Shown: piece by piece, positions 1 through 11,227 of the stretch
Numbering within the stretch: position 1 is the stretch's first letter
How the letters are laid out: every line of letters begins with the position of its first letter
NCBI GenBank assembly: GCA_963665235.2
Contig: CAXXLX010000001.1
Span: 2,592,001-2,656,000 of the forward strand
Direction of reading: 5' to 3'
From: Candidatus Poribacteria bacterium
GTDB taxonomy: Bacteria; Poribacteria; WGA-4E; WGA-3G
DNA: 64,000 bases
Program-made: the position numbers and the translations under genes
Notes under the pieces: model-generated
Databases searched by the model: none
What the model saw: only the letters and a program-made list of their open reading frames with translations
What the model was told of the DNA's origin: nothing

Positions 1-2
1 AC

Positions 3-1081
3 AAGGATGGCAACGCCTTGGCGGTCACGAAACGGAACGCCAACGTTGTTGTGAGACAATTGCTACCGACAGATATCAATAGAGATGGCAGAGTGAACGT
101 GCAAGACCTCGTCTTAGTTGCGCGCGATCTCGGGAAGACAGGTACTCTCTCGACAGATCTGAACAGTGATAACAGAGTGAACGTGCAGGACCTTGTGTTA
201 GTCGCACGCGACCTCGGGAAGACAACAAATAGTGGGGGGACCACGCCACCAGATGATGGCGGAACCACCACGCCGCCAGACGACGGCGGAACCACCACGC
301 CACCGACCACTGACCCGTATGCAGGCATGGCACTAATCCCTGCTGGCGAATTTCGGATGGGAGGCAACGATGCACAGGCCCGGAGCAATGAAAAACCGGT
401 GCATTCTGTCTATGTAGATGCATTTTACATGGATAAATATGAGGTTACCAATGCCCAATATGCAGCGTTCCTGAATGCGAAAGGCAAACACGCTGAGGGT
501 GGTATCACCTGGTATCGCATTGGTCAAGATCGTTCTCGTATTGAGCTGGCATCTGGTAAGTATCGTGCGAAAACCGGGTATGAAAATCACCCTGTGACAT
601 ACGTGAGTTGGTATGGTGCGATGGCTTATGCGGCGTGGAAGGGCAAACGTCTGCCGACAGAAGCGGAGTGGGAAAAAGCTGCACGTGGCGGTTTAGCCGG
701 TCTAAAATACCCGTGGGGTAACACCATAAATTCCACCAAGGCAAATTACAATAATCATATTAAGGATACCACTGCAGTAGGTAAGTATACTGCAAATGGT
801 TACGGTTTATTCGATATGGCAGGGAATGTGTGGGAGTGGTGCTTAGACGAGTATAACGGAGGTTTCTATTCGGTTTCGCCAGCTCGGAATCCGTTGTCGG
901 GTGCAAATAGTGTTGAATGGTTAATAAATAATTATAAAGGTGTTAAAAGTTCCCGCGTTTTGCGTGGTGGCTCCTGGAGCGGTACGGACAGGACGTGCGG
1001 GTCGCCTTTCGCGGCAGCAAGACGCCGCCGTACTCGAACGACTACTTCGGTTTTCGTTGTGCGAGGGCTGTAACCCCTTAA
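3..1081 (+). CDS. DGR target protein (5'-partial): two dockerin/EF-hand-like repeats, Thr/Pro linker, FGE-sulfatase (C-type-lectin-fold) domain; 1-nt deletion in the VR frameshifts the C-terminus
   Basis: Frame is open to the window start. TDINRDGRVNVQDLVLVARDLG occurs twice, then TTPPDDGG repeats and FGE motifs (EVTNAQY, RLPTEAEWEKAARGG, YGLFDMAGNVWEW, RVLRGGSW). The canonical GFRCA ending lies in another frame and stops at 1081; the ORF as read stops at 1073. Confidence 0.9.
947..1064 (+). repeat. DGR variable repeat (VR)
   Basis: Aligns to 1530-1648. By eye: 17 substitutions at TR adenines, one deleted TR adenine, one non-A change (AAT to AAG). Confidence 0.93.
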
Positions 1082-1103
1082 ATCTTTACGTCTTTACCTC
1101 TTA

Positions 1104-1135
1104 CGTCTCCAATCTGCTTTAGCAGATTGGAGACG
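1104..1135 (+). promoter_or_regulatory. Perfect inverted repeat downstream of VR (DGR target-recognition hairpin and/or terminator)
   Basis: CGTCTCCAATCTGCT-TT-AGCAGATTGGAGACG, about 20 bp after the target stop, where DGR hairpins usually lie. Confidence 0.8.
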
Positions 1136-1191
1136 CGGCTCAAAATTTTAAAAATACTAGTAAATAATTAATTAACATATTGTAATTATTT

Positions 1192-1659
1192 ATGGCAGCA
1201 TCAACAGTTCAAGCGGTTCCAAAACTATACGATGTAATTGTGTGGTTGATGGGGCGCGTTGAAAAATTTCCGCGTTCCCAAAAGTTCACCCTCGGTGACC
1301 GAACTGTCAACCTTGCTCTGGATACACTAGAGTTGCTTATTGAAGCTACCTATACGCGGGACCGCTTGGTTTTGCTACGTAAAGCCAATGTGCAACTGGA
1401 AAAACTGCGTTTTATGATTCGGTTATGCGATTTTTGCGCAAACCATTTTCCGGAAATCATAAAAGATATATTCAAAAAGCGTGTCGCTCTCGATGCCTTT
1501 GCGTCGGGAGTTCACGAGGTTTCAAGCCGAAGTTCCCGCGTTTTGCGTGGTGGCTCCTGGAACAATACAGAACAAAACGTGCGGGTCGCCTTTCGCAACA
1601 ACAATACGCCAACGAACACGAACAACAACAACGGTTTTCGTTGTGCGAAGACACTTTAG
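1192..1659 (+). CDS. avd: Avd (accessory variability determinant)-like four-helix protein, C-terminally truncated and reading in frame through TR
   Basis: KLYDVIVWL..KFPRSQKFTLGDR..LELLIEA..ANVQLEKLRFMIRL matches Avd-family motifs. The final EIG.MLGGW helix was not found in any frame. The ORF ends in RVLRGGSWNN..NNNNGFRCA. Confidence 0.8.
   Translation: MAASTVQAVPKLYDVIVWLMGRVEKFPRSQKFTLGDRTVNLALDTLELLIEATYTRDRLVLLRKANVQLEKLRFMIRLCDFCANHFPEIIKDIFKKRVALDAFASGVHEVSSRSSRVLRGGSWNNTEQNVRVAFRNNNTPTNTNNNNGFRCAKTL
1530..1648 (+). ncRNA. DGR template repeat (TR)
   Basis: AAC-rich (AACAATACAGAACAAAAC; AACAACAACAAC) copy of the VR, directly after avd. Confidence 0.92.
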
Positions 1660-1809
1660 AGGGTCCACCGTGACTACAAGTCACTATAAGGGGTTGCCAG
1701 AGTTGGTATGCCTCCGATGTAGGTGAGTCATATCAAGTGTGCATCAATGAAGAGTCCAAGGTTTGGGACCTGTGTTAGTCTCTTTAGAGATGAGCCGAAG
1801 ATAAAAACT

Positions 1810-1861
1810 GAGGTGTGATGGTAAGTAGGCTTCCTGCCGAATGCTATCACACCTCTTTTTT
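1810..1861 (+). terminator. Hairpin plus T-run closing the TR-downstream spacer
   Basis: GAGGTGTGAT...ATCACACCTC followed by TTTTTT. Confidence 0.6.
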
Positions 1862-1969
1862 ATGCTACTATAGGGCGGGGTTTCATGTCTCGCCTTTTCA
1901 TAATTTTTCGTTGTTTTAATTAGAAAAATTCTGTCGCGCGCGTAATAGAACGCGCACGCCCGAGGACTT

Positions 1970-3739
1970 ATGATGAACGCTGTAAAGATTGCCCCTGAGC
2001 TGCTGTTAGCCTTCCAAGACTACGTGGAGACAGCAGGCTACGAGGAGGCAGAATCAACAGATTTACCCTTAGATAATAGAACCTTGAGCCCTCAAGGCAG
2101 TGTGGTCAGGCCGGAAGCACCGCAGGTAAACGTTTTTCTACACTGTGACGAGGCAGCAGCACTTGACCATTTAGAGGAGAAAGGTATTCAAATCAATACC
2201 CGGAAAGGGTGTATCAGAACAGCCCGCTTATCCTTGGAAAATCTGGAACGCCTTTATGAGGAACCCAACCTTATGCATGTTGAGGCATCACACAAGCTGC
2301 ATCCACTGATGGACGTAGCTTTTGCCAGAGTGCAGTTTCCGGAATTTCGGAACAAAACTGATTTGACAGGTAAAGGGGTAATCATTGGTGTTGTTGACAG
2401 CGGCATTGATTCTAACCATCCCGCCTTCCAAGGACGAATTTTGCGGATCTGGGACCAAGAAATTAAACAGAAGTTGACACGTGAAAATTTCTCTCTCTCC
2501 CGGGATACCGATGGGCATGGCACGCATGTCGCCGGCATCGCAGCGGGTAACGATAATCAATACGGTGGGGTTGCTCCCGAAGCGGAATTGGTCATCGTCA
2601 AGAGTACCTTGTGGGATACAGATATCTTAGAAGGTATTCGCTATATCTTTGAATTTGCGGATGAACTCGGCAAACCGGCAGTAGTGAATCTTAGTCTTGG
2701 CGGACACCACGATCCTCACGATGGCAGTGATAGTTTGTCAAGAGAGATTGATAGGTTATCTGGTGAAGGCAAAATTGTTTGTTGTTCGGCTGGCAATGAG
2801 GGAAATTATAATATTCATGCACAAGCGCACCTTGCTCAAAGCGGGGATTCACGCAGCATGCGTTTCTTGGTGCCGGAGACTTCAGGCAGCAACGCTATTC
2901 GGAAGGTTACACTAAATGGGTGGTATTCAGTAAGGGGCCATATTGAGGTAGCTATCCAATCACCGAGTGGAGCTCGGACAGATTATCAAGGTATTCTATC
3001 CGAAAATGCCTTGGTCCCTCACGATTTGCCAGATGCCCGTATCTACACTGTCACGCCTGAAATTGATTCGACAAACCAAGACCGTTCATTCACCATTACA
3101 GTGAACGCTGGCGGCTCTGATGGAGTCGTTACGCCGGGAATATGGAAACTCTGGTTGCATGGTAGAGATGTTAGCAATACTCAAGTGGACGTGTGGGTAT
3201 TAGATGGTAAAAAGCTTCCACAGGTGGTTTTCACCGGGAGAAGTGTTTCTGACTCAATGAAGATTGGATCTCCAGGGGCAGCCCATCGGGCGGTTCCTGT
3301 CGCTTCCTACACAACTAAGGCCGAATGGCAGGATATTGATGGGAGGACATGGACGGTAGGATTGTCTCCAAACGATATTTCTGATTTCAGTAGTGAGGGG
3401 CCTTTACGTAACGGAGTCCAAAAACCGGATGTGACCGCACCGGGGGCGTATATCGCCAGTTGCCTGTCATCTGATGTGGACCAGCCGCCACGCTGGAGGC
3501 AAATAAACTCTCATTATACCATGATGGCGGGCACAAGTATGTCTGCCCCCTTTATCAGCGGTATCATCGCTCTCTTGCTCCAACACGATTCTACATTTTC
3601 ACCCGAACGCATCAAGGCCTTTTTACAAGCGAGCAGTTCCATCCTTGGAAACCGACCTGGCCGTTTCCATCCAAAATGGGGGTATGGACTGATAGATGCC
3701 GATGCACTCGCGGATGCTCTTTTCTCTCTAACTTCGTAA
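1970..3739 (+). CDS. S8 subtilase-family serine protease with N-terminal prodomain and inserted domain
   Basis: Catalytic motifs GVVDSGID, HGTHVAGIA, SAGNEG, MAGTSMSAP. Confidence 0.93.
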   Translation: MMNAVKIAPELLLAFQDYVETAGYEEAESTDLPLDNRTLSPQGSVVRPEAPQVNVFLHCDEAAALDHLEEKGIQINTRKGCIRTARLSLENLERLYEEPNLMHVEASHKLHPLMDVAFARVQFPEFRNKTDLTGKGVIIGVVDSGIDSNHPAFQGRILRIWDQEIKQKLTRENFSLSRDTDGHGTHVAGIAAGNDNQYGGVAPEAELVIVKSTLWDTDILEGIRYIFEFADELGKPAVVNLSLGGHHDPHDGSDSLSREIDRLSGEGKIVCCSAGNEGNYNIHAQAHLAQSGDSRSMRFLVPETSGSNAIRKVTLNGWYSVRGHIEVAIQSPSGARTDYQGILSENALVPHDLPDARIYTVTPEIDSTNQDRSFTITVNAGGSDGVVTPGIWKLWLHGRDVSNTQVDVWVLDGKKLPQVVFTGRSVSDSMKIGSPGAAHRAVPVASYTTKAEWQDIDGRTWTVGLSPNDISDFSSEGPLRNGVQKPDVTAPGAYIASCLSSDVDQPPRWRQINSHYTMMAGTSMSAPFISGIIALLLQHDSTFSPERIKAFLQASSSILGNRPGRFHPKWGYGLIDADALADALFSLTS

Positions 3740-3828
3740 CCGAAAAAAGTACCAATTCTCTTGAGAATATGTTATCATATAGAGTGTTTATTAAATAGCA
3801 TTTTCACTTCTGTAAAGGAGATATTTTT

Positions 3829-4104
3829 ATGAACTATCAGAAACTTGGTATTGCACTTGCTATGGCCGTTACTGACGCTGAAACATTAGATGAAGAGGGA
3901 GGCGCATTCAACGTTTTTATCCACACGACTCGTGCCCTTGGTATTAACGAGGTTACCTACCTTGAAGGATTGGGGGTTTCGTGTGAGCCTGCGGATCGAC
4001 AGGTATTTACAGCAACACTCTCGGCTGAGGCGGTTGATGAGTTGTCTAAACAGCCCTGGGTGAGTTCCCTTGAACTTTCGCAGAAACTGCAGTTGCACAG
4101 ATAA
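3829..4104 (+). CDS. Small protein resembling the prodomain of the adjacent subtilase
   Basis: SD AAGGAG. Shares the NVF.H / LE..G / TA.LS / S.KL pattern with residues ~50-112 of 1970..3739. Confidence 0.7.
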   Translation: MNYQKLGIALAMAVTDAETLDEEGGAFNVFIHTTRALGINEVTYLEGLGVSCEPADRQVFTATLSAEAVDELSKQPWVSSLELSQKLQLHR

Positions 4105-4167
4105 ATATATGAAGATAGGTTTTGTCCAGTCAGGATGAAACGCTTCCTGCTGCTGCCCGATTGTTAG

Positions 4168-4401
4168 TTGATTATCTACAAAAACATTCGCGCCCGATGG
4201 CTTATGATGAGGGGTAAACGCCTGAAAACAATTTTTGAGGCGAAGAAACGCTTCTCAACCCATTATTTGTCTGAAGAAGGTTTTGTAGGAGTCGGCATTG
4301 GTCGTCATAAAAATGCTGATGCCTTGCTGGTTTACGTAGAGAGTGTGGATTGCATCATCGCGCAGCAATTCAAAGTTAAGGTTCGGGAGATAAAGGCTTG
4401 A
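4168..4401 (+). CDS. Small hypothetical protein (FVGVGIG motif), possibly truncated
   Basis: Co-oriented after the protease pair; overlaps the 3' end of the convergent gene. Confidence 0.4.
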   Translation: MIIYKNIRARWLMMRGKRLKTIFEAKKRFSTHYLSEEGFVGVGIGRHKNADALLVYVESVDCIIAQQFKVKVREIKA

Positions 4402-8585: not shown

Positions 8586-10300
8586 CTAATCGTCCCTTTG
8601 CGCCGCGGAGGACGATTGCTCAAGATGGGCTTGATAGAGTCGATTCTTGAAATCCGCATTGATTTCAGATTTTGACAATTTATTGTAAAGTTCCAGCTTG
8701 TTATTGACAAAATCCAATAAAATATCATCAACTACTTGTTCAAACTTATACCGTTTGTTGGTTTCCGCTGAAACGCTGCTTGGAGCTGTTCTGGTTCATT
8801 CACGAAGTCAAGCACTAGCGTATCGGTTTTACCAGTAGCGACACGGTTCAGACGGCTCAAGGTTTGGACACATTGTAACCCATCCAATCGCTTATCAACG
8901 TACATCGTCTGCAGCAGCGGCTCATCGAAACCTGTCTGGAACTTGTTCGCGACAATCAGAATCCGATATTCAGGACTCTTGAAACTGTCCTCGACGGAAG
9001 TGCTCGGCGGCAACAGATTCATCCCGCTTTCCGTGTATTCCTGCCCGTTATCGGTGTCTTGCACTGTGTTGCTGAACGCTACCAAACACCCGTAGGGAAG
9101 TCCCATCTCCTTCATCTGCCGATCAAACTCCTGCTTGTATCTGACGCAGTGCAGTCGGGAGGGTGTAACCAACATCGCTCGTCCCTTCCCTTCAATCGTT
9201 TTTGCCGTGTGTTCGGTGAAGTGTTCAAGGATAATCCGGGTTTTGGTCTCAATACTATGGGGTTGCAGGTCAACGTAATTGGTCAGTGCTCGAAGCGTTC
9301 GCGCCTTCTCGTACTCTCTATCCTCCTGTGCACTTTTAACCAATTGGAAGTATCTCTTAAAGGTGGTATAGTTCTGCAGCACGTCCAGTGTGAAACCTTC
9401 GCTGATACTTTGGCGCATGGAATAGACATGAAACGGGACAAATTTTCCTTCTGCGTCCTTCTGTCCAAAGAGTTCTAAGGTCTTGTTTTTCGGGGTGCCG
9501 CTGAAACCGAAATAGGAGATATGCTCTTGCATTCTGCGTTGTTCCATCTGTTCAAGGATTTTAGCGTCTATATCCGATACTTCATCGGCATCATGTTCCG
9601 TTTCCCCCTCTTCTATCCCCTTTGAGAGTGAAGCCCTGAGATTTCTCTCCGACTCCCCGCTCTGTGAGGAGTGCGCTTCGTCAATAATCACGGCGAAGGT
9701 CTTGCTTTTGAGTTTGCCTATCTCCTCGGCAATCACGCTGAACTTCTGAATCGTTGAGATGATGATGTCTTTGCCGGATTCGAGGAAACCTCTGAGTTGC
9801 GCTGAGGTCTTATCAACGGCATGGACTACCCCCTCGACCTGTGCTACCTGCTTGATTGTGTTCTGCAGCTGCTTGTCAAGGACGCGCCGGTCTGTTACGA
9901 CAATAATGGAGTCAAAGATGCGATTGGTATCGCTCTCCGACCGATACAGATGCGTGAGTAGGTGCGCCAACCACGCGATGGAGTTCGACTTCCCACTCCC
10001 TGTGGTGTGTTGGATGAGATATTTATGTCCAACCCCCTCTTTCTCGATAGCCGCTTGCAATTGACGAATCACATCCAGCTGATGATACCGTGGAAAAATA
10101 AGGACGCGGCGTTTCTCATCTGTCACAATTTTACTTCACGATTCTTTCCATTCAACAAAGGTATTGAAAACCCTCCAAACCCGCATGGGCACAAGACCGC
10201 CTACCTTTGGGAAGACATCCTGCAGCCCGATAATCTGATGACGTTAATCAACAACTTTATCTACGAGCAGGAAACCACAGAAAAGGTTTACAATCTGACA
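8586..10300 (-). pseudogene. hsdR: Type I restriction subunit HsdR remnant (N-terminus lost, internal inversion, large C-terminal deletion)
   Basis: 8732..10126 carries IFPRYHQL, HTTGSGKS, IIDEAHSSQ, FSGTPK, QTGFDEP, QTLSRLNR. A C-terminal-like piece (ETNKRYKFEQVVDDILLDFV..) lies in another frame ending at 8586. The upstream piece is on the + strand at ~10126-10300. Confidence 0.85.
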
Positions 10301-10304
10301 AGTA

Positions 10305-10419
10305 CAGGACTTACGCAGCGCGTTGATAAAGTCCATAGATAATAGGATTTAGAGAGAGATCTAGCGGGCGAGGGGACCTCGCCCCTACGAGGATATCGCC
10401 TAAATTTGCGTAAACCCTG
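10305..10419. mobile_element. MITE with TIR CAGGACTTACGCA and an internal GTAG-type palindrome
   Basis: Reverse-complement homologue of 22212-22322. Confidence 0.8.
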
Positions 10420-10427
10420 GCAAACAA

Positions 10428-10649
10428 TTAATTTTGGGGGTTGGGTGTTTCTGGTTTAGGTGCTTCTGGTTTGGGTGTTTCTGGTGTAACAACTGGTCTA
10501 TCGTCAGGCTTAGTCTCTGGTTGAACTGGCTTAGGTTCAATAGGAGTTACAGGCCTAACTTTAGCGGGTGGTTTGGGACCTGTCCAAGACTCCACATGTT
10601 TTGGCTTTTTTGGCTTAGCAGACCGATTTTGACTATTTTTGCGTGCCAT
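10428..10649 (-). CDS. Small basic Pro-rich protein (PETPKP repeats)
   Basis: ATG at 10649 preceded by GGAGG, immediately after the stop of the interrupted membrane gene. Confidence 0.5.
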   Translation of the reverse strand: MARKNSQNRSAKPKKPKHVESWTGPKPPAKVRPVTPIEPKPVQPETKPDDRPVVTPETPKPEAPKPETPNPQN

Positions 10650-10650
10650 T

Positions 10651-11227
10651 TTATTCACCTCCTTTTACCTCTAAAATACCAAATATCATTAATAGTGCAA
10701 TTGCCAATATCCCTACAATAAATAAAATTATAGAAGTGACAATTAGAAATGTACCTATTTTATTTGCTGTACTCCTCTTAGTGGCTGCTTCCTCTATATT
10801 ATACCATTTCTAATTGAAAATGTCTCTTTCTTGTAGCATAAACTTCCAGTTTGTGCCGTTCTCCGTTTCATTTCTAACAACTGGTAATGGTAGAATAATT
10901 AATAAAAATGGTATTATATAGGTAATATTGTTCGTTAAATTCCCTCTGTTTATGTAAAGCCCTTTGGATAAACAAATAGGAAATTACACCCAGGATAATG
11001 GAAAAAACAAATGGCGCATAACTAATTAGCATGATCCATGTTCTATGATTAATGTCCCAATTGATATACGCAGTCAATAGTATCAATATAACGCCAGAAA
11101 AATATCTCATAGACTTATTGAGTTCCACATCGTTACTCATCAGGCTATCAAATATAGTTTTTTCTTCAGCGAGATATTGTGCGTACCTTTCTTTTTGCAA
11201 TTCTTCTTCATTTGACATAATATACAC
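10651..11227 (-). pseudogene. Low-GC ~3-TM membrane protein interrupted by a MITE
   Basis: Removing 10802-10913 and one TTA restores ..EQYYLYNIEEAATKRSTANKIGTFLIVTSIILFIVGILAIALLMIFGILEVKGGE*. Confidence 0.75.
10802..10913. mobile_element. MITE (TIR TACCATTT/AAATGGTA, 3-bp TTA duplication) carrying one REP-like palindrome
   Basis: Same ends at 48487-48902 and 61637-61785; TTA on both sides. Confidence 0.85.

What the first reader, a model, noticed from the sequence alone, without database searches (positions are those of the whole stretch)
3..1861. Diversity-generating retroelement cassette with no reverse transcriptase in the window
Seen: VR (947-1064) and TR (1530-1648) differ almost only at TR adenines (17 A-to-N substitutions, one A deletion, one T-to-G); a perfect 15-bp hairpin follows VR; avd precedes TR; a ~200-nt spacer and a terminal hairpin follow TR. 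Established: this is the signature of DGR mutagenic retrohoming, and RT normally follows TR. Here a subtilase gene occupies that position and no RT is recognisable in the 64 kb. Inference: either a satellite module with its own template, served by an RT in trans, or a DGR frozen by RT loss.
Basis: partly seen in the sequence, partly recalled or inferred. Interest (0 to 1): 0.85.

Follow-up and report, generated by a model that had tools for sequence, protein, structure and literature searches.

The report
DGR that lost its reverse transcriptase
This is a real targeted-hypermutation cassette (a diversity-generating retroelement) whose reverse transcriptase gene and the end of its helper gene were cut out by one deletion of about 1.1 kb, so it is most likely a recently switched-off, ordinary relic.

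Summary
The VR/TR pair is real. VR 947-1064 and TR 1530-1648 differ at 19 places, 18 of them at TR adenines (P about 4e-9). A second VR, 1.7 Mb away in an intact paralogue, differs at 18 of 18 adenines.

Three related genomes carry the same cassette in the order avd-RT-TR-spacer-terminator, which is architecture B2 of Wu et al. 2018.

In the window one deletion joins avd codon 79 to the last 11 codons of the RT (1427-1462, AIFAQTIFRKS*). It removed about 1.1 kb. Short-read contigs from two runs bridge the junction.

No DGR-type RT or second Avd was found in the 4-contig assembly. The only RT lies beside Cas1 and a CRISPR array.

The one-base "A deletion" in VR is absent from contigs of three runs, so the target gene is probably intact. 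VR reads the same in all three samples.

Other relatives hold other deletion remnants. Degenerate DGR loci are already in print, and this scan has noted several on other DNA.

Verdict: a decayed DGR. Service in trans is unsupported but not excluded.

The parts
3..1081 (+). 3' part of the DGR target gene. It is a secreted cohesin-dockerin-FGE-sulfatase/C-type-lectin-fold protein; the intact paralogue is 503 aa. As assembled, the frame breaks near 987 and stops at 1073. With the extra A seen in read contigs it ends at 1081.
   Evidence: Pfam hits on the paralogue: FGE-sulfatase 1.1e-67, Cohesin 1.9e-13, Dockerin_1 2.6e-6. Extra A behind 987 in X1, X2 and X3. Alternative frame 995-1081.
947..1064 (+). 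Variable repeat (VR).
   Evidence: 18 of 19 differences from the TR lie at TR adenines. Identical in contigs of three samples apart from the extra A.
1061..1075 (+). IMH-like end of VR (GCGAGGGCTGT...). It is conserved in the VRs of relatives and differs from the TR end (GCGAAGAC...).
   Evidence: VR/TR alignments in the window and in G024, G003 and G008. The IMH/IMH* concept comes from the introduction of Wu et al. 2018, read.
1104..1135 (+). Hairpin after VR: 14-bp perfect stem, 4-nt loop, no T-run behind it.
   Evidence: z -8.1. Not picked up as terminator-like. Degenerate copies lie behind the paralogous VRs.
1192..1427 (+). avd stub: codons 1-79 of about 115. The ORF then runs on out of frame through the RT remnant and the TR to 1659.
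   Evidence: NF033474 positions 4-74 of 104, below cut-off. 86% identical to G024 Avd residues 1-79. Alignment A2.
1427..1428 (.). Deletion junction. About 1.1 kb is missing (avd codons 80-115 and RT codons 1 to about 340). There is 2-3 nt of microhomology (TG/TGC).
   Evidence: Relatives have 1127-1298 bp between the two matching pieces. Alignments A2 and A3. The junction is bridged by X1 record 6 and X2 record 13. A roughly 97%-alike RNA-library contig runs on from 1427 into intact avd.
1427..1462 (+). Remnant of the RT gene: its last 11 codons and stop (AIFAQTIFRKS*).
   Evidence: The G024 RT ends ...AIFSQTVFRRSE* and the G003 RT ends ...AIFSDLFFHRS*.
1530..1648 (+). Template repeat (TR): 35 A in 119 nt, rich in AAC codons.
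   Evidence: It is the only A-rich copy among the 7 related repeats in the genome.
1649..1809 (+). Conserved non-coding spacer after the TR, presumed to be the 3' part of the DGR RNA.
   Evidence: About 80-93% identical to G024, G003, G008, G014 and L024, with long invariant blocks. No Rfam family matches. Consensus fold gives 57 pairs, only 2 of them compensatory, from 4 sequences.
1810..1861 (+). Terminal hairpin plus T-run: an intrinsic-terminator-like end of the cassette.
   Evidence: (z -6.7), followed by TTTTTT. Conserved in relatives. A 93% copy lies at C1:880185-880319, and further copies are dispersed in relatives.

Best explanation
This is a chromosomal diversity-generating retroelement of the avd-RT-TR type (architecture B2 of Wu et al. 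2018) in an uncultured bacterium. The database titles of its nearest matching records name Candidatus Poribacteria.

How it worked (inferred). When intact, its RT and Avd copied the TR-spacer RNA with errors at adenines. The cDNA was written into the 3' end of at least two paralogous genes for secreted cohesin-dockerin-lectin-fold proteins: the adjacent one (VR 947-1064) and a remote one at C1:881705-881823.

What happened (shown). One deletion of about 1.1 kb between short microhomologies then removed the last 36 or so codons of avd and all but the last 11 codons of the RT. The assembly holds no other DGR RT or Avd.

Consequence (inferred). The cassette can no longer make cDNA, and both variable regions are frozen at their last written sequences. 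The loss is recent. Both VRs still differ from the TR almost only at adenines. The TR, spacer, terminator and VR hairpin are undamaged. The two target paralogues are identical over 723 nt up to the VR and then differ only at adenine positions.
For: (a) A-specific VR/TR pattern: window VR 18 of 19 differences, remote VR 18 of 18.

(b) Relatives G024, G003 and G008 have avd (115-120 aa), an RT (353-361 aa with IGNLTSQ and YxDD; PF00078 87.8 bits), TR, spacer and terminator in that order. Their own VR/TR pairs are A-specific too.

(c) The window matches their avd up to 1427/1428 and their RT 3' end onward from there. They have 1127-1298 bp in between. The RT tail AIFAQTIFRKS* is preserved.

(d) The junction is bridged by contigs of two runs, one of which carries two further SNPs (1485, 1492). 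The deletion is therefore shared by more than one haplotype.

(e) Whole-genome searches:
- PF00078 finds one RT only, on C2.
- tblastn with two intact relatives' RTs finds only that one, at 28-29% identity over its N-terminal part.
- A motif scan finds no SQ-motif RT (motifs recalled).
- The C2 RT is group-II-like (TIGR04416, 275 bits) and lies next to Cas1 and a 45-repeat CRISPR array.
- The only other Avd-like hit is a 23S_rRNA_IVP protein.

(f) VR is identical in contigs of three samples dated 2023-2025.

(g) The paralogues have no difference in window 255-977, then differences at 978-1044 only.

(h) Avd and its binding to the RT are required for retrohoming in the Bordetella phage system (introduction of Wu et al. 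2018, passages seen).
Against: The assembly is a 4-contig genome scored 92.6% complete, so an RT on unassembled DNA cannot be excluded. Single-contig relatives score only 94-96%, though, so little is likely to be missing.

In X1 and X3 the contigs coming from the left stop exactly at 1427 (records 5 and 22). That implies a branch in the assembly graph there, which could be a co-occurring undeleted allele.

The VR-specific contig has about half the depth of the unique flank in all three runs: 19.7 vs 37, 13 vs 24-30, 13.6 vs 35. This could mean other VR variants exist in the population. Contigs drop rare variants, so 'monomorphic' is shown only at contig level.

The three DNA runs come from one study, and one of them may be the source of the assembly.
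Confidence: 0.8

Rival explanations
1. The RT-less cassette is still in use. Its TR-spacer RNA would be served in trans by RT and Avd from elsewhere: an undeleted allele in co-resident cells of the same population, or a DGR on DNA that was not assembled. The assembled genome would then show only the majority, degraded structural variant.
For: Contigs end exactly at 1427 in two runs, and the VR contig has about half the depth of its flank. The TR, spacer, terminator, IMH and VR hairpin are all intact. Two VRs fit the TR at all or nearly all non-A sites. Trans service and coexisting intact and degraded variants are documented for Thiohalocapsa PB-PSB1 (Dore et al. 2024, PMC10907252, passages seen). 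avd, TR and brt work from a plasmid (Wu et al. 2018, passage).
Against: No DGR RT and no second Avd in 5.3 Mb. The VR contig sequence is the same in three samples across three years. The junction-bearing form occurs on at least two haplotypes. An RT in another cell cannot act on this cell's DNA, so a co-resident allele would explain standing diversity but not activity of this cassette.
Confidence: 0.13
2. The deletion is an assembly artefact, for example a collapse or mis-join, and the real genome has the full avd-RT-TR cassette.
For: The same assembly has at least one consensus error 440 nt away: the missing A at 987.
Against: Independent short contigs of X1 (1398-1559) and X2 (1398-1484) bridge the junction with 30 nt on the left side and 57-131 nt on the right. 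The RT is absent from all four contigs. Other relatives show comparable deletions at other breakpoints.
Confidence: 0.03
3. The resident CRISPR-associated, group-II-like RT on contig C2 substitutes for the lost DGR RT.
For: It is the only RT in the assembly, and its ORF is open (478 aa).
Against: It lacks the DGR-type SQ motif and has GSPLSPLL instead (motif definitions are recalled). It is 28-29% identical to the lineage's DGR RTs, and only over their N-terminal part. It lies beside Cas1 and a CRISPR array. Avd, which must bind the RT in the studied system, is truncated.
Confidence: 0.02

Closest known systems
Architecture B2 DGRs (avd-RT-TR) in the classification of Wu et al. 2018, NAR 46:11 (PMC5758913; section 'Architectural variations' read)
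   Same: The gene order of the intact relatives is target(VR)-avd-RT-TR. The accessory gene is Avd. The target is a C-type-lectin/FGE fold with the VR at its C-terminus. Mismatches are A-specific. There is a remote second target.
   Different: In the window the RT and the Avd C-terminus are deleted. A strongly conserved spacer of about 160 nt plus a terminator follows the TR. I did not check whether this spacer is described for B2 elements.
'Degenerate' and incomplete DGR loci of Thiohalocapsa sp. PB-PSB1 (Dore et al. 2024, PNAS, PMC10907252; passages seen)
   Same: Loci keep VR and/or TR but have lost or broken the RT. The authors raise the same two readings, served in trans or diversified before disruption. 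They also report coexisting intact and degraded variants.
   Different: There the damage comes from transposons and MITE-like arrays, and each class keeps one complete locus in the same genome that can act in trans. Here the damage is a clean microhomology deletion, and no complete locus was found in the genome.
[quoted passage not shown] 2016, PMC4891356; passages seen)
   Same: Remnants of a DGR are left after the RT is lost. There are repeated gains and losses among close relatives.
   Different: Those isolates lost the TR as well. Here the TR, spacer and avd stub remain, so the deletion scar can be read directly.
Bordetella phage BPP-1 DGR (mtd-avd-TR-brt), the prototype (as described in Wu et al. 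2018)
   Same: VR with IMH and a downstream inverted repeat. TR with IMH*. Avd plus RT are required. Mutagenesis is A-to-N.
   Different: The gene order differs (the TR precedes the RT there). It is a phage tail-fibre target there and a chromosomal gene for a secreted protein here. The BPP-1 element is active.

Membership tests
Diversity-generating retroelement (DGR) | TR/VR repeat pair whose differences fall at TR adenines | tested here: met
   18 of 19 differences (window VR) and 18 of 18 (remote VR) at TR adenines; P = 3.7e-9 and 2.7e-10.
Diversity-generating retroelement (DGR) | A DGR-clade reverse transcriptase encoded in the cassette or genome | tested here: not met
   Only the last 11 codons remain. 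There is no DGR RT in the 4 contigs by PF00078, tblastn or motif scan. As a positive control, a relative's RT scores 87.8 bits on PF00078.
Diversity-generating retroelement (DGR) | Accessory protein Avd, full length | tested here: not met
   Codons 1-79 only. NF033474 scores 63.9 bits against a cut-off of 80; PF22296 scores 37.8 against 40. The relatives' Avd scores 77.4 bits.
Diversity-generating retroelement (DGR) | IMH at the VR end versus IMH* at the TR end, and an inverted repeat downstream of VR | tested here: met
   The VR ends GCGAGGGCTGT and the TR ends GCGAAGAC, and the same contrast holds in three relatives. A 14-bp hairpin lies 40 nt after the VR. This is shown at sequence level only.
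Diversity-generating retroelement (DGR) | Target protein with a C-type-lectin/FGE-type fold carrying the VR at its C-terminus | tested here: met
   PF03781 at 1.1e-67, covering residues 251-499 of the 503 aa of the paralogue.
Diversity-generating retroelement (DGR) | Ongoing diversification of the VR with an invariant TR | tested here: inconclusive
   The VR contigs are identical in three samples, but only contigs were available, not raw reads. VR contig depth is about half that of the flank.
Architecture B2 (avd-RT-TR) of Wu et al. 2018 | Order avd, RT, TR on one strand | tested here: met
   Met in relatives G024, G003 and G008. In the window the order of the remnants (avd stub, RT tail, TR) is the same.

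The most novel reading that the evidence does not exclude
The TR-spacer RNA module outlives its enzyme on purpose. In this lineage, RT-less cassettes that keep the conserved spacer would persist as templates. The window, G014 and L024 all retain part of the spacer. Such templates could be re-armed whenever an RT-Avd pair of the same lineage is present, either in a subpopulation carrying the undeleted allele or after horizontal transfer. Hypermutation would then be switched off and on at population level by deletion and re-acquisition, not simply lost.
Probability: 0.08. Interest if true: 0.55.

Novelty: new member of a known kind. Interest (0 to 1): 0.2.

Why it matters
The practical value is mainly in annotation.

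- It shows that an 'RT-less DGR' here is a deletion relic whose scar can be read to the base.
- It corrects a frameshift in the assembly.
- It shows that RT-based DGR surveys would miss this cassette and several other remnants among its relatives. Of 60 relatives searched, 3 have the full cassette and at least 4 genomes hold remnants.

For the organism, two secreted cohesin-dockerin-lectin proteins were diversified until recently and are now probably fixed. This does not open a new mechanism. Degenerate DGR loci, and the question of trans service versus frozen state, are already in print (PMC10907252, PMC4891356).

Tried and rejected
- Genome-wide self-BLAST for other A-patterned repeat pairs. 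I did not repeat it, so other TR families are excluded only indirectly, by the absence of any DGR RT.
- Rfam scan of 900-2000. The only hit is a chance-level miRNA match (E 0.24), so the spacer belongs to no curated RNA family.
- Rfam scan of the C2 RT locus at gathering threshold. No group II intron RNA was found.
- Scans for a 36-nt spacer pattern. There were 0 matches in metagenome contigs and 0 in viral contigs, so these gave no near-identical undeleted allele and no phage link.
- Simple promoter and terminator scan of 900-2100. It found nothing useful. It misses the terminal hairpin because that loop exceeds its limit.
- Avd-like tblastn hit at C2:252258-252575 (E 0.025). I rejected it as Avd: it is a 23S_rRNA_IVP protein (7.6e-40).
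- Four further VR-like copies, at C1:1926397, 3107640, 3511495 and 3701770. They have 5, 7, 9 and 18 non-A differences. I treat them as older or unrelated paralogue ends and not as current targets. Their reading frames were not all checked.
- Literature searches. One search returned nothing relevant. One search failed on a term that was too long. I found no paper on DGRs of this bacterial group, but I did not search for it by name.
- Our-findings look-up for this genome returned nothing.
- RNA-library contigs of run X7 come from a relative about 95-97% alike, not from this organism. Their depths (avd 4; TR-spacer 34-106) cannot rank expression.

Full report
**1. Observation**

The window is G000:C1:2592001-2656000. 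VR 947-1064 and TR 1530-1648 align over 119 nt with 19 differences: 17 A-to-N substitutions, one missing A and one T-to-G at 1021. The TR has 35 A in 119 nt, so 18 or more of 19 differences at A has P = 3.7e-9.

- The VR lies at the 3' end of an ORF that runs off the window start (3..1073).
- A hairpin with a 14-bp stem and 4-nt loop follows at 1104-1135 (z -8.1).
- An avd-like ORF starts at 1192.
- After the TR come about 160 nt of spacer and a long hairpin with a T-run at 1810-1861 (z -6.7).
- A subtilase gene follows at 1970-3739 (PF00082, 2.2e-48).

Three corrections are given in sections 2 and 3.

**2. Where the RT went**

A DNA search of 60 relatives with window 1100-1970 split the query into two pieces in G024, G003 and G008. 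The avd 5' part (window 1189-1428) and the TR-spacer part (window about 1426-1872) lie 1127-1298 bp apart in those genomes.

The intervening DNA encodes the rest of Avd (115-120 aa) and a 353-361-aa RT with IGNLTSQFFANIYL and Y(M/V)DD. The RT scores 87.8 bits on PF00078 and the Avd 77.4 bits on PF22296. The order is therefore target(VR)-avd-RT-TR-spacer-terminator.

In the window, avd matches only profile positions 4-74 of 104 of NF033474 (63.9 bits, cut-off 80). Alignments A2 and A3 put the break at 1427/1428. To the left is avd codon 79. To the right, in the RT frame, is AIFAQTIFRKS* (1427-1462). Compare ...AIFSQTVFRRSE* in G024 and ...AIFSDLFFHRS* in G003.

The two sides share TG(C). One microhomology-flanked deletion of about 1.1 kb therefore removed avd codons 80-115 and RT codons 1 to about 340. 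The 155-aa ORF 1192-1659 is a chance read-through of the scar into the TR.

**3. Is the deletion real, and is the VR frameshift real?**

I laid Logan contigs of three DNA runs (X1-X3; one study, three samples, 2023-2025) and one RNA-library run (X7; another study, 2015) on window 1-2100.

- *Junction.* X1 record 6 (1398-1559, depth 23) and X2 record 13 (1398-1484, depth 24) bridge it. The X1 record also carries C>T at 1485 and G>A at 1492, so the deletion sits on more than one haplotype.
- *Polarity.* An X7 contig matches 1268-1427 with 5 differences and then runs on unlike the window. Read in frame, the continuation is the next avd codons (LCHDFKAISSKQ). An undeleted, roughly 97%-alike relative therefore exists, which fixes the direction of the event as a deletion.
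- *Frameshift.* All three DNA runs have an extra A behind 987 in contigs that otherwise equal the window's VR (records 12 and 21: 0 other letters, 1 gap). The 'A deletion' is thus most likely an assembly consensus error, and the target gene is intact. From 995 it reads VRVAFRGSKTPPYSNDYFGFRCARAVTP*, like its paralogue.

**4. Is there an RT or Avd elsewhere?**

- PF00078 over the whole 5.31-Mb, 4-contig assembly finds one RT, on C2.
- tblastn with the G024 and G003 RTs finds only that gene, at 28-29% identity over its N-terminal 170 or so residues. The G024 Avd finds only the window stub and a weak C2 hit.
- The C2 RT (478 aa, GSPLSPLL, YADD) scores 275 bits on TIGR04416 (cut-off 300). It lies beside Cas1 (8.4e-94) and a 45-repeat CRISPR array, so it is CRISPR-associated.
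- The weak Avd-like hit is a 23S_rRNA_IVP protein.
- Completeness is 92.6%, but single-contig relatives score only 94-96%, so little seems to be missing.

**5. Targets and timing**

The TR is the only A-rich member of seven related repeats in the genome.

A second VR at C1:881705-881823 (minus strand) differs from the TR at 18 of 18 adenines. It ends an intact 503-aa protein with a hydrophobic, signal-peptide-like N-terminus (by eye), cohesin, dockerin and an FGE-sulfatase/lectin-fold domain.

The two loci are a segmental duplication running from about -3510 to 1132 in window coordinates. There is no difference at all in 255-977, and then differences at 978-1044 only. The element therefore rewrote at least one of the two VRs after they were last homogenised.

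Four more copies have 5-18 non-A differences and look older.

With one non-A change in the window VR, none in the remote VR, and an undamaged TR, spacer and hairpins, the RT loss looks recent. This is an inference and has no calibration.

**6. Points against a simple 'dead relic'**

- In X1 and X3 the contigs from the left stop exactly at 1427 (records 5 and 22), implying a graph branch there.
- The VR contig has about half the depth of the unique flank in all three runs.

Both would fit a minority of cells with another allele or other VR variants, as Dore et al. 2024 saw for Thiohalocapsa (PMC10907252, passages). I could not look at raw reads because the single read-laying run was used, so this stays open. 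I give it 0.13.

**7. Context**

*Relatives.* Among the 60 relatives searched:

- The full RT of this lineage is in 3: G003, G008 and G024. The other matches in that call are weak (at most 33% identity) and fall in longer RT ORFs that I did not examine.
- Full-length Avd is in 4, the same three plus G001.
- In G001 (2 contigs, 94% complete) no RT was found with this query, and nothing RT-like follows avd.
- G014 has avd residues 85-106, RT residues 173-202 and the 3' spacer abutting each other.
- G020 has avd residues 50-87.
- G024 has a second avd copy with a TAG inside it.

*Pattern scan of species genomes.* The spacer pattern found four records. Three are the intact relatives, and their titles name Candidatus Poribacteria. 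The fourth, L024, is a target gene followed by the last 10 or so nt of a TR and about 130 nt of spacer, with no avd, RT or TR body.

Deletional decay of this cassette is thus recurrent in the group. The intact relatives keep A-specific VR/TR pairs.

*Spacer.* It has long invariant blocks and a plausible fold, but only 2 of 57 pairs are compensatory with 4 sequences. No Rfam family matches it.

**8. Comparison and novelty**

It works, or worked, like a B2 DGR. As a member of the DGR family it fails two defining features tested here, the RT and a full Avd, because they were deleted. 'Decayed DGR' is the accurate label.

RT-less or otherwise degenerate DGR loci are in print (PMC10907252; PMC4891356). 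This scan has filed at least eight similar notes on other DNA.

What is particular here is the clean, base-resolved scar; the survival of the TR, spacer and two well-matched VRs; and the absence of any complete locus in the genome.

Interest 0.2; a new member of a known kind.

Noticed in passing
window 987/988: The assembly lacks one A that is present in contigs of three runs. This puts an artificial frameshift in the DGR target gene (stop at 1073 where the true stop is 1081).
   Followed up: yes
G000:C2:250000-264000 (L023): A CRISPR array of about 45 repeats (37-nt repeat, L023 4245 to about 7600). Cas1 lies at L023 8064-9050 (-). A 478-aa group-II-like RT lies at 9716-11152 (-), with a 33-nt tandem repeat array next to it (9080-9576). 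This is an RT-associated CRISPR adaptation module and the only RT in the genome.
   Followed up: partly
run X7, contigs laid at window 1694 (table 7): In an RNA-library contig of a close relative, the letters just before the spacer position 1694 translate to SQFFANIY, which is RT motif 4. The middle of an RT gene is therefore joined directly to the spacer. This is either another deletion variant lacking the RT 3' half and the TR, or an assembly chimera.
   Followed up: no
L015 (G014:C282:1-2113), 321-613: A compact DGR remnant: an Avd C-terminal fragment, 26-30 RT codons (…EGDDLLTALNRRRGIPIGN) and the 3' 150 nt of the spacer abut each other.
   Followed up: partly
L024 (CAZQIP010000192.1:1-2778), 150-460 minus strand: An FGE-type target gene with a VR-like end and its hairpin, followed by the last 10 or so nt of a TR and about 130 nt of spacer. 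There is no avd, RT or TR body. An acetyl-CoA carboxylase biotin carboxylase gene lies upstream.
   Followed up: partly
L016 (G001:C1:5269910-5273085): A target gene with VR, followed by an intact 122-aa avd. Nothing RT-like lies behind it, and no RT of this lineage was found in that 2-contig genome with the query used.
   Followed up: partly
window 1805-1934 and C1:880185-880319; several places in G008, G003, G005, G026: The terminator-like hairpin that ends the cassette is a dispersed repeat (86-94% identical copies). In the paralogous locus it follows a 74-aa ORF homologous to window ORF 4168-4401.
   Followed up: no
C1:2589230-2590680 (2.8-1.3 kb upstream of the window start) and C1:884089-885256: Arrays of tandem repeats of about 116-154 bp lie upstream of both target-gene paralogues. 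Copy number differs between the two loci.
   Followed up: no
window 1970-4401 versus C1:880331-881567: Downstream of the two paralogous targets the gene content differs. The window has an S8 subtilase (589 aa), a 91-aa ORF and a 77-aa ORF. The paralogous locus has a 308-aa protein with a Nal1_C-type serine-protease-like domain and a 74-aa ORF. The small ORFs are 88% identical at DNA level.
   Followed up: no
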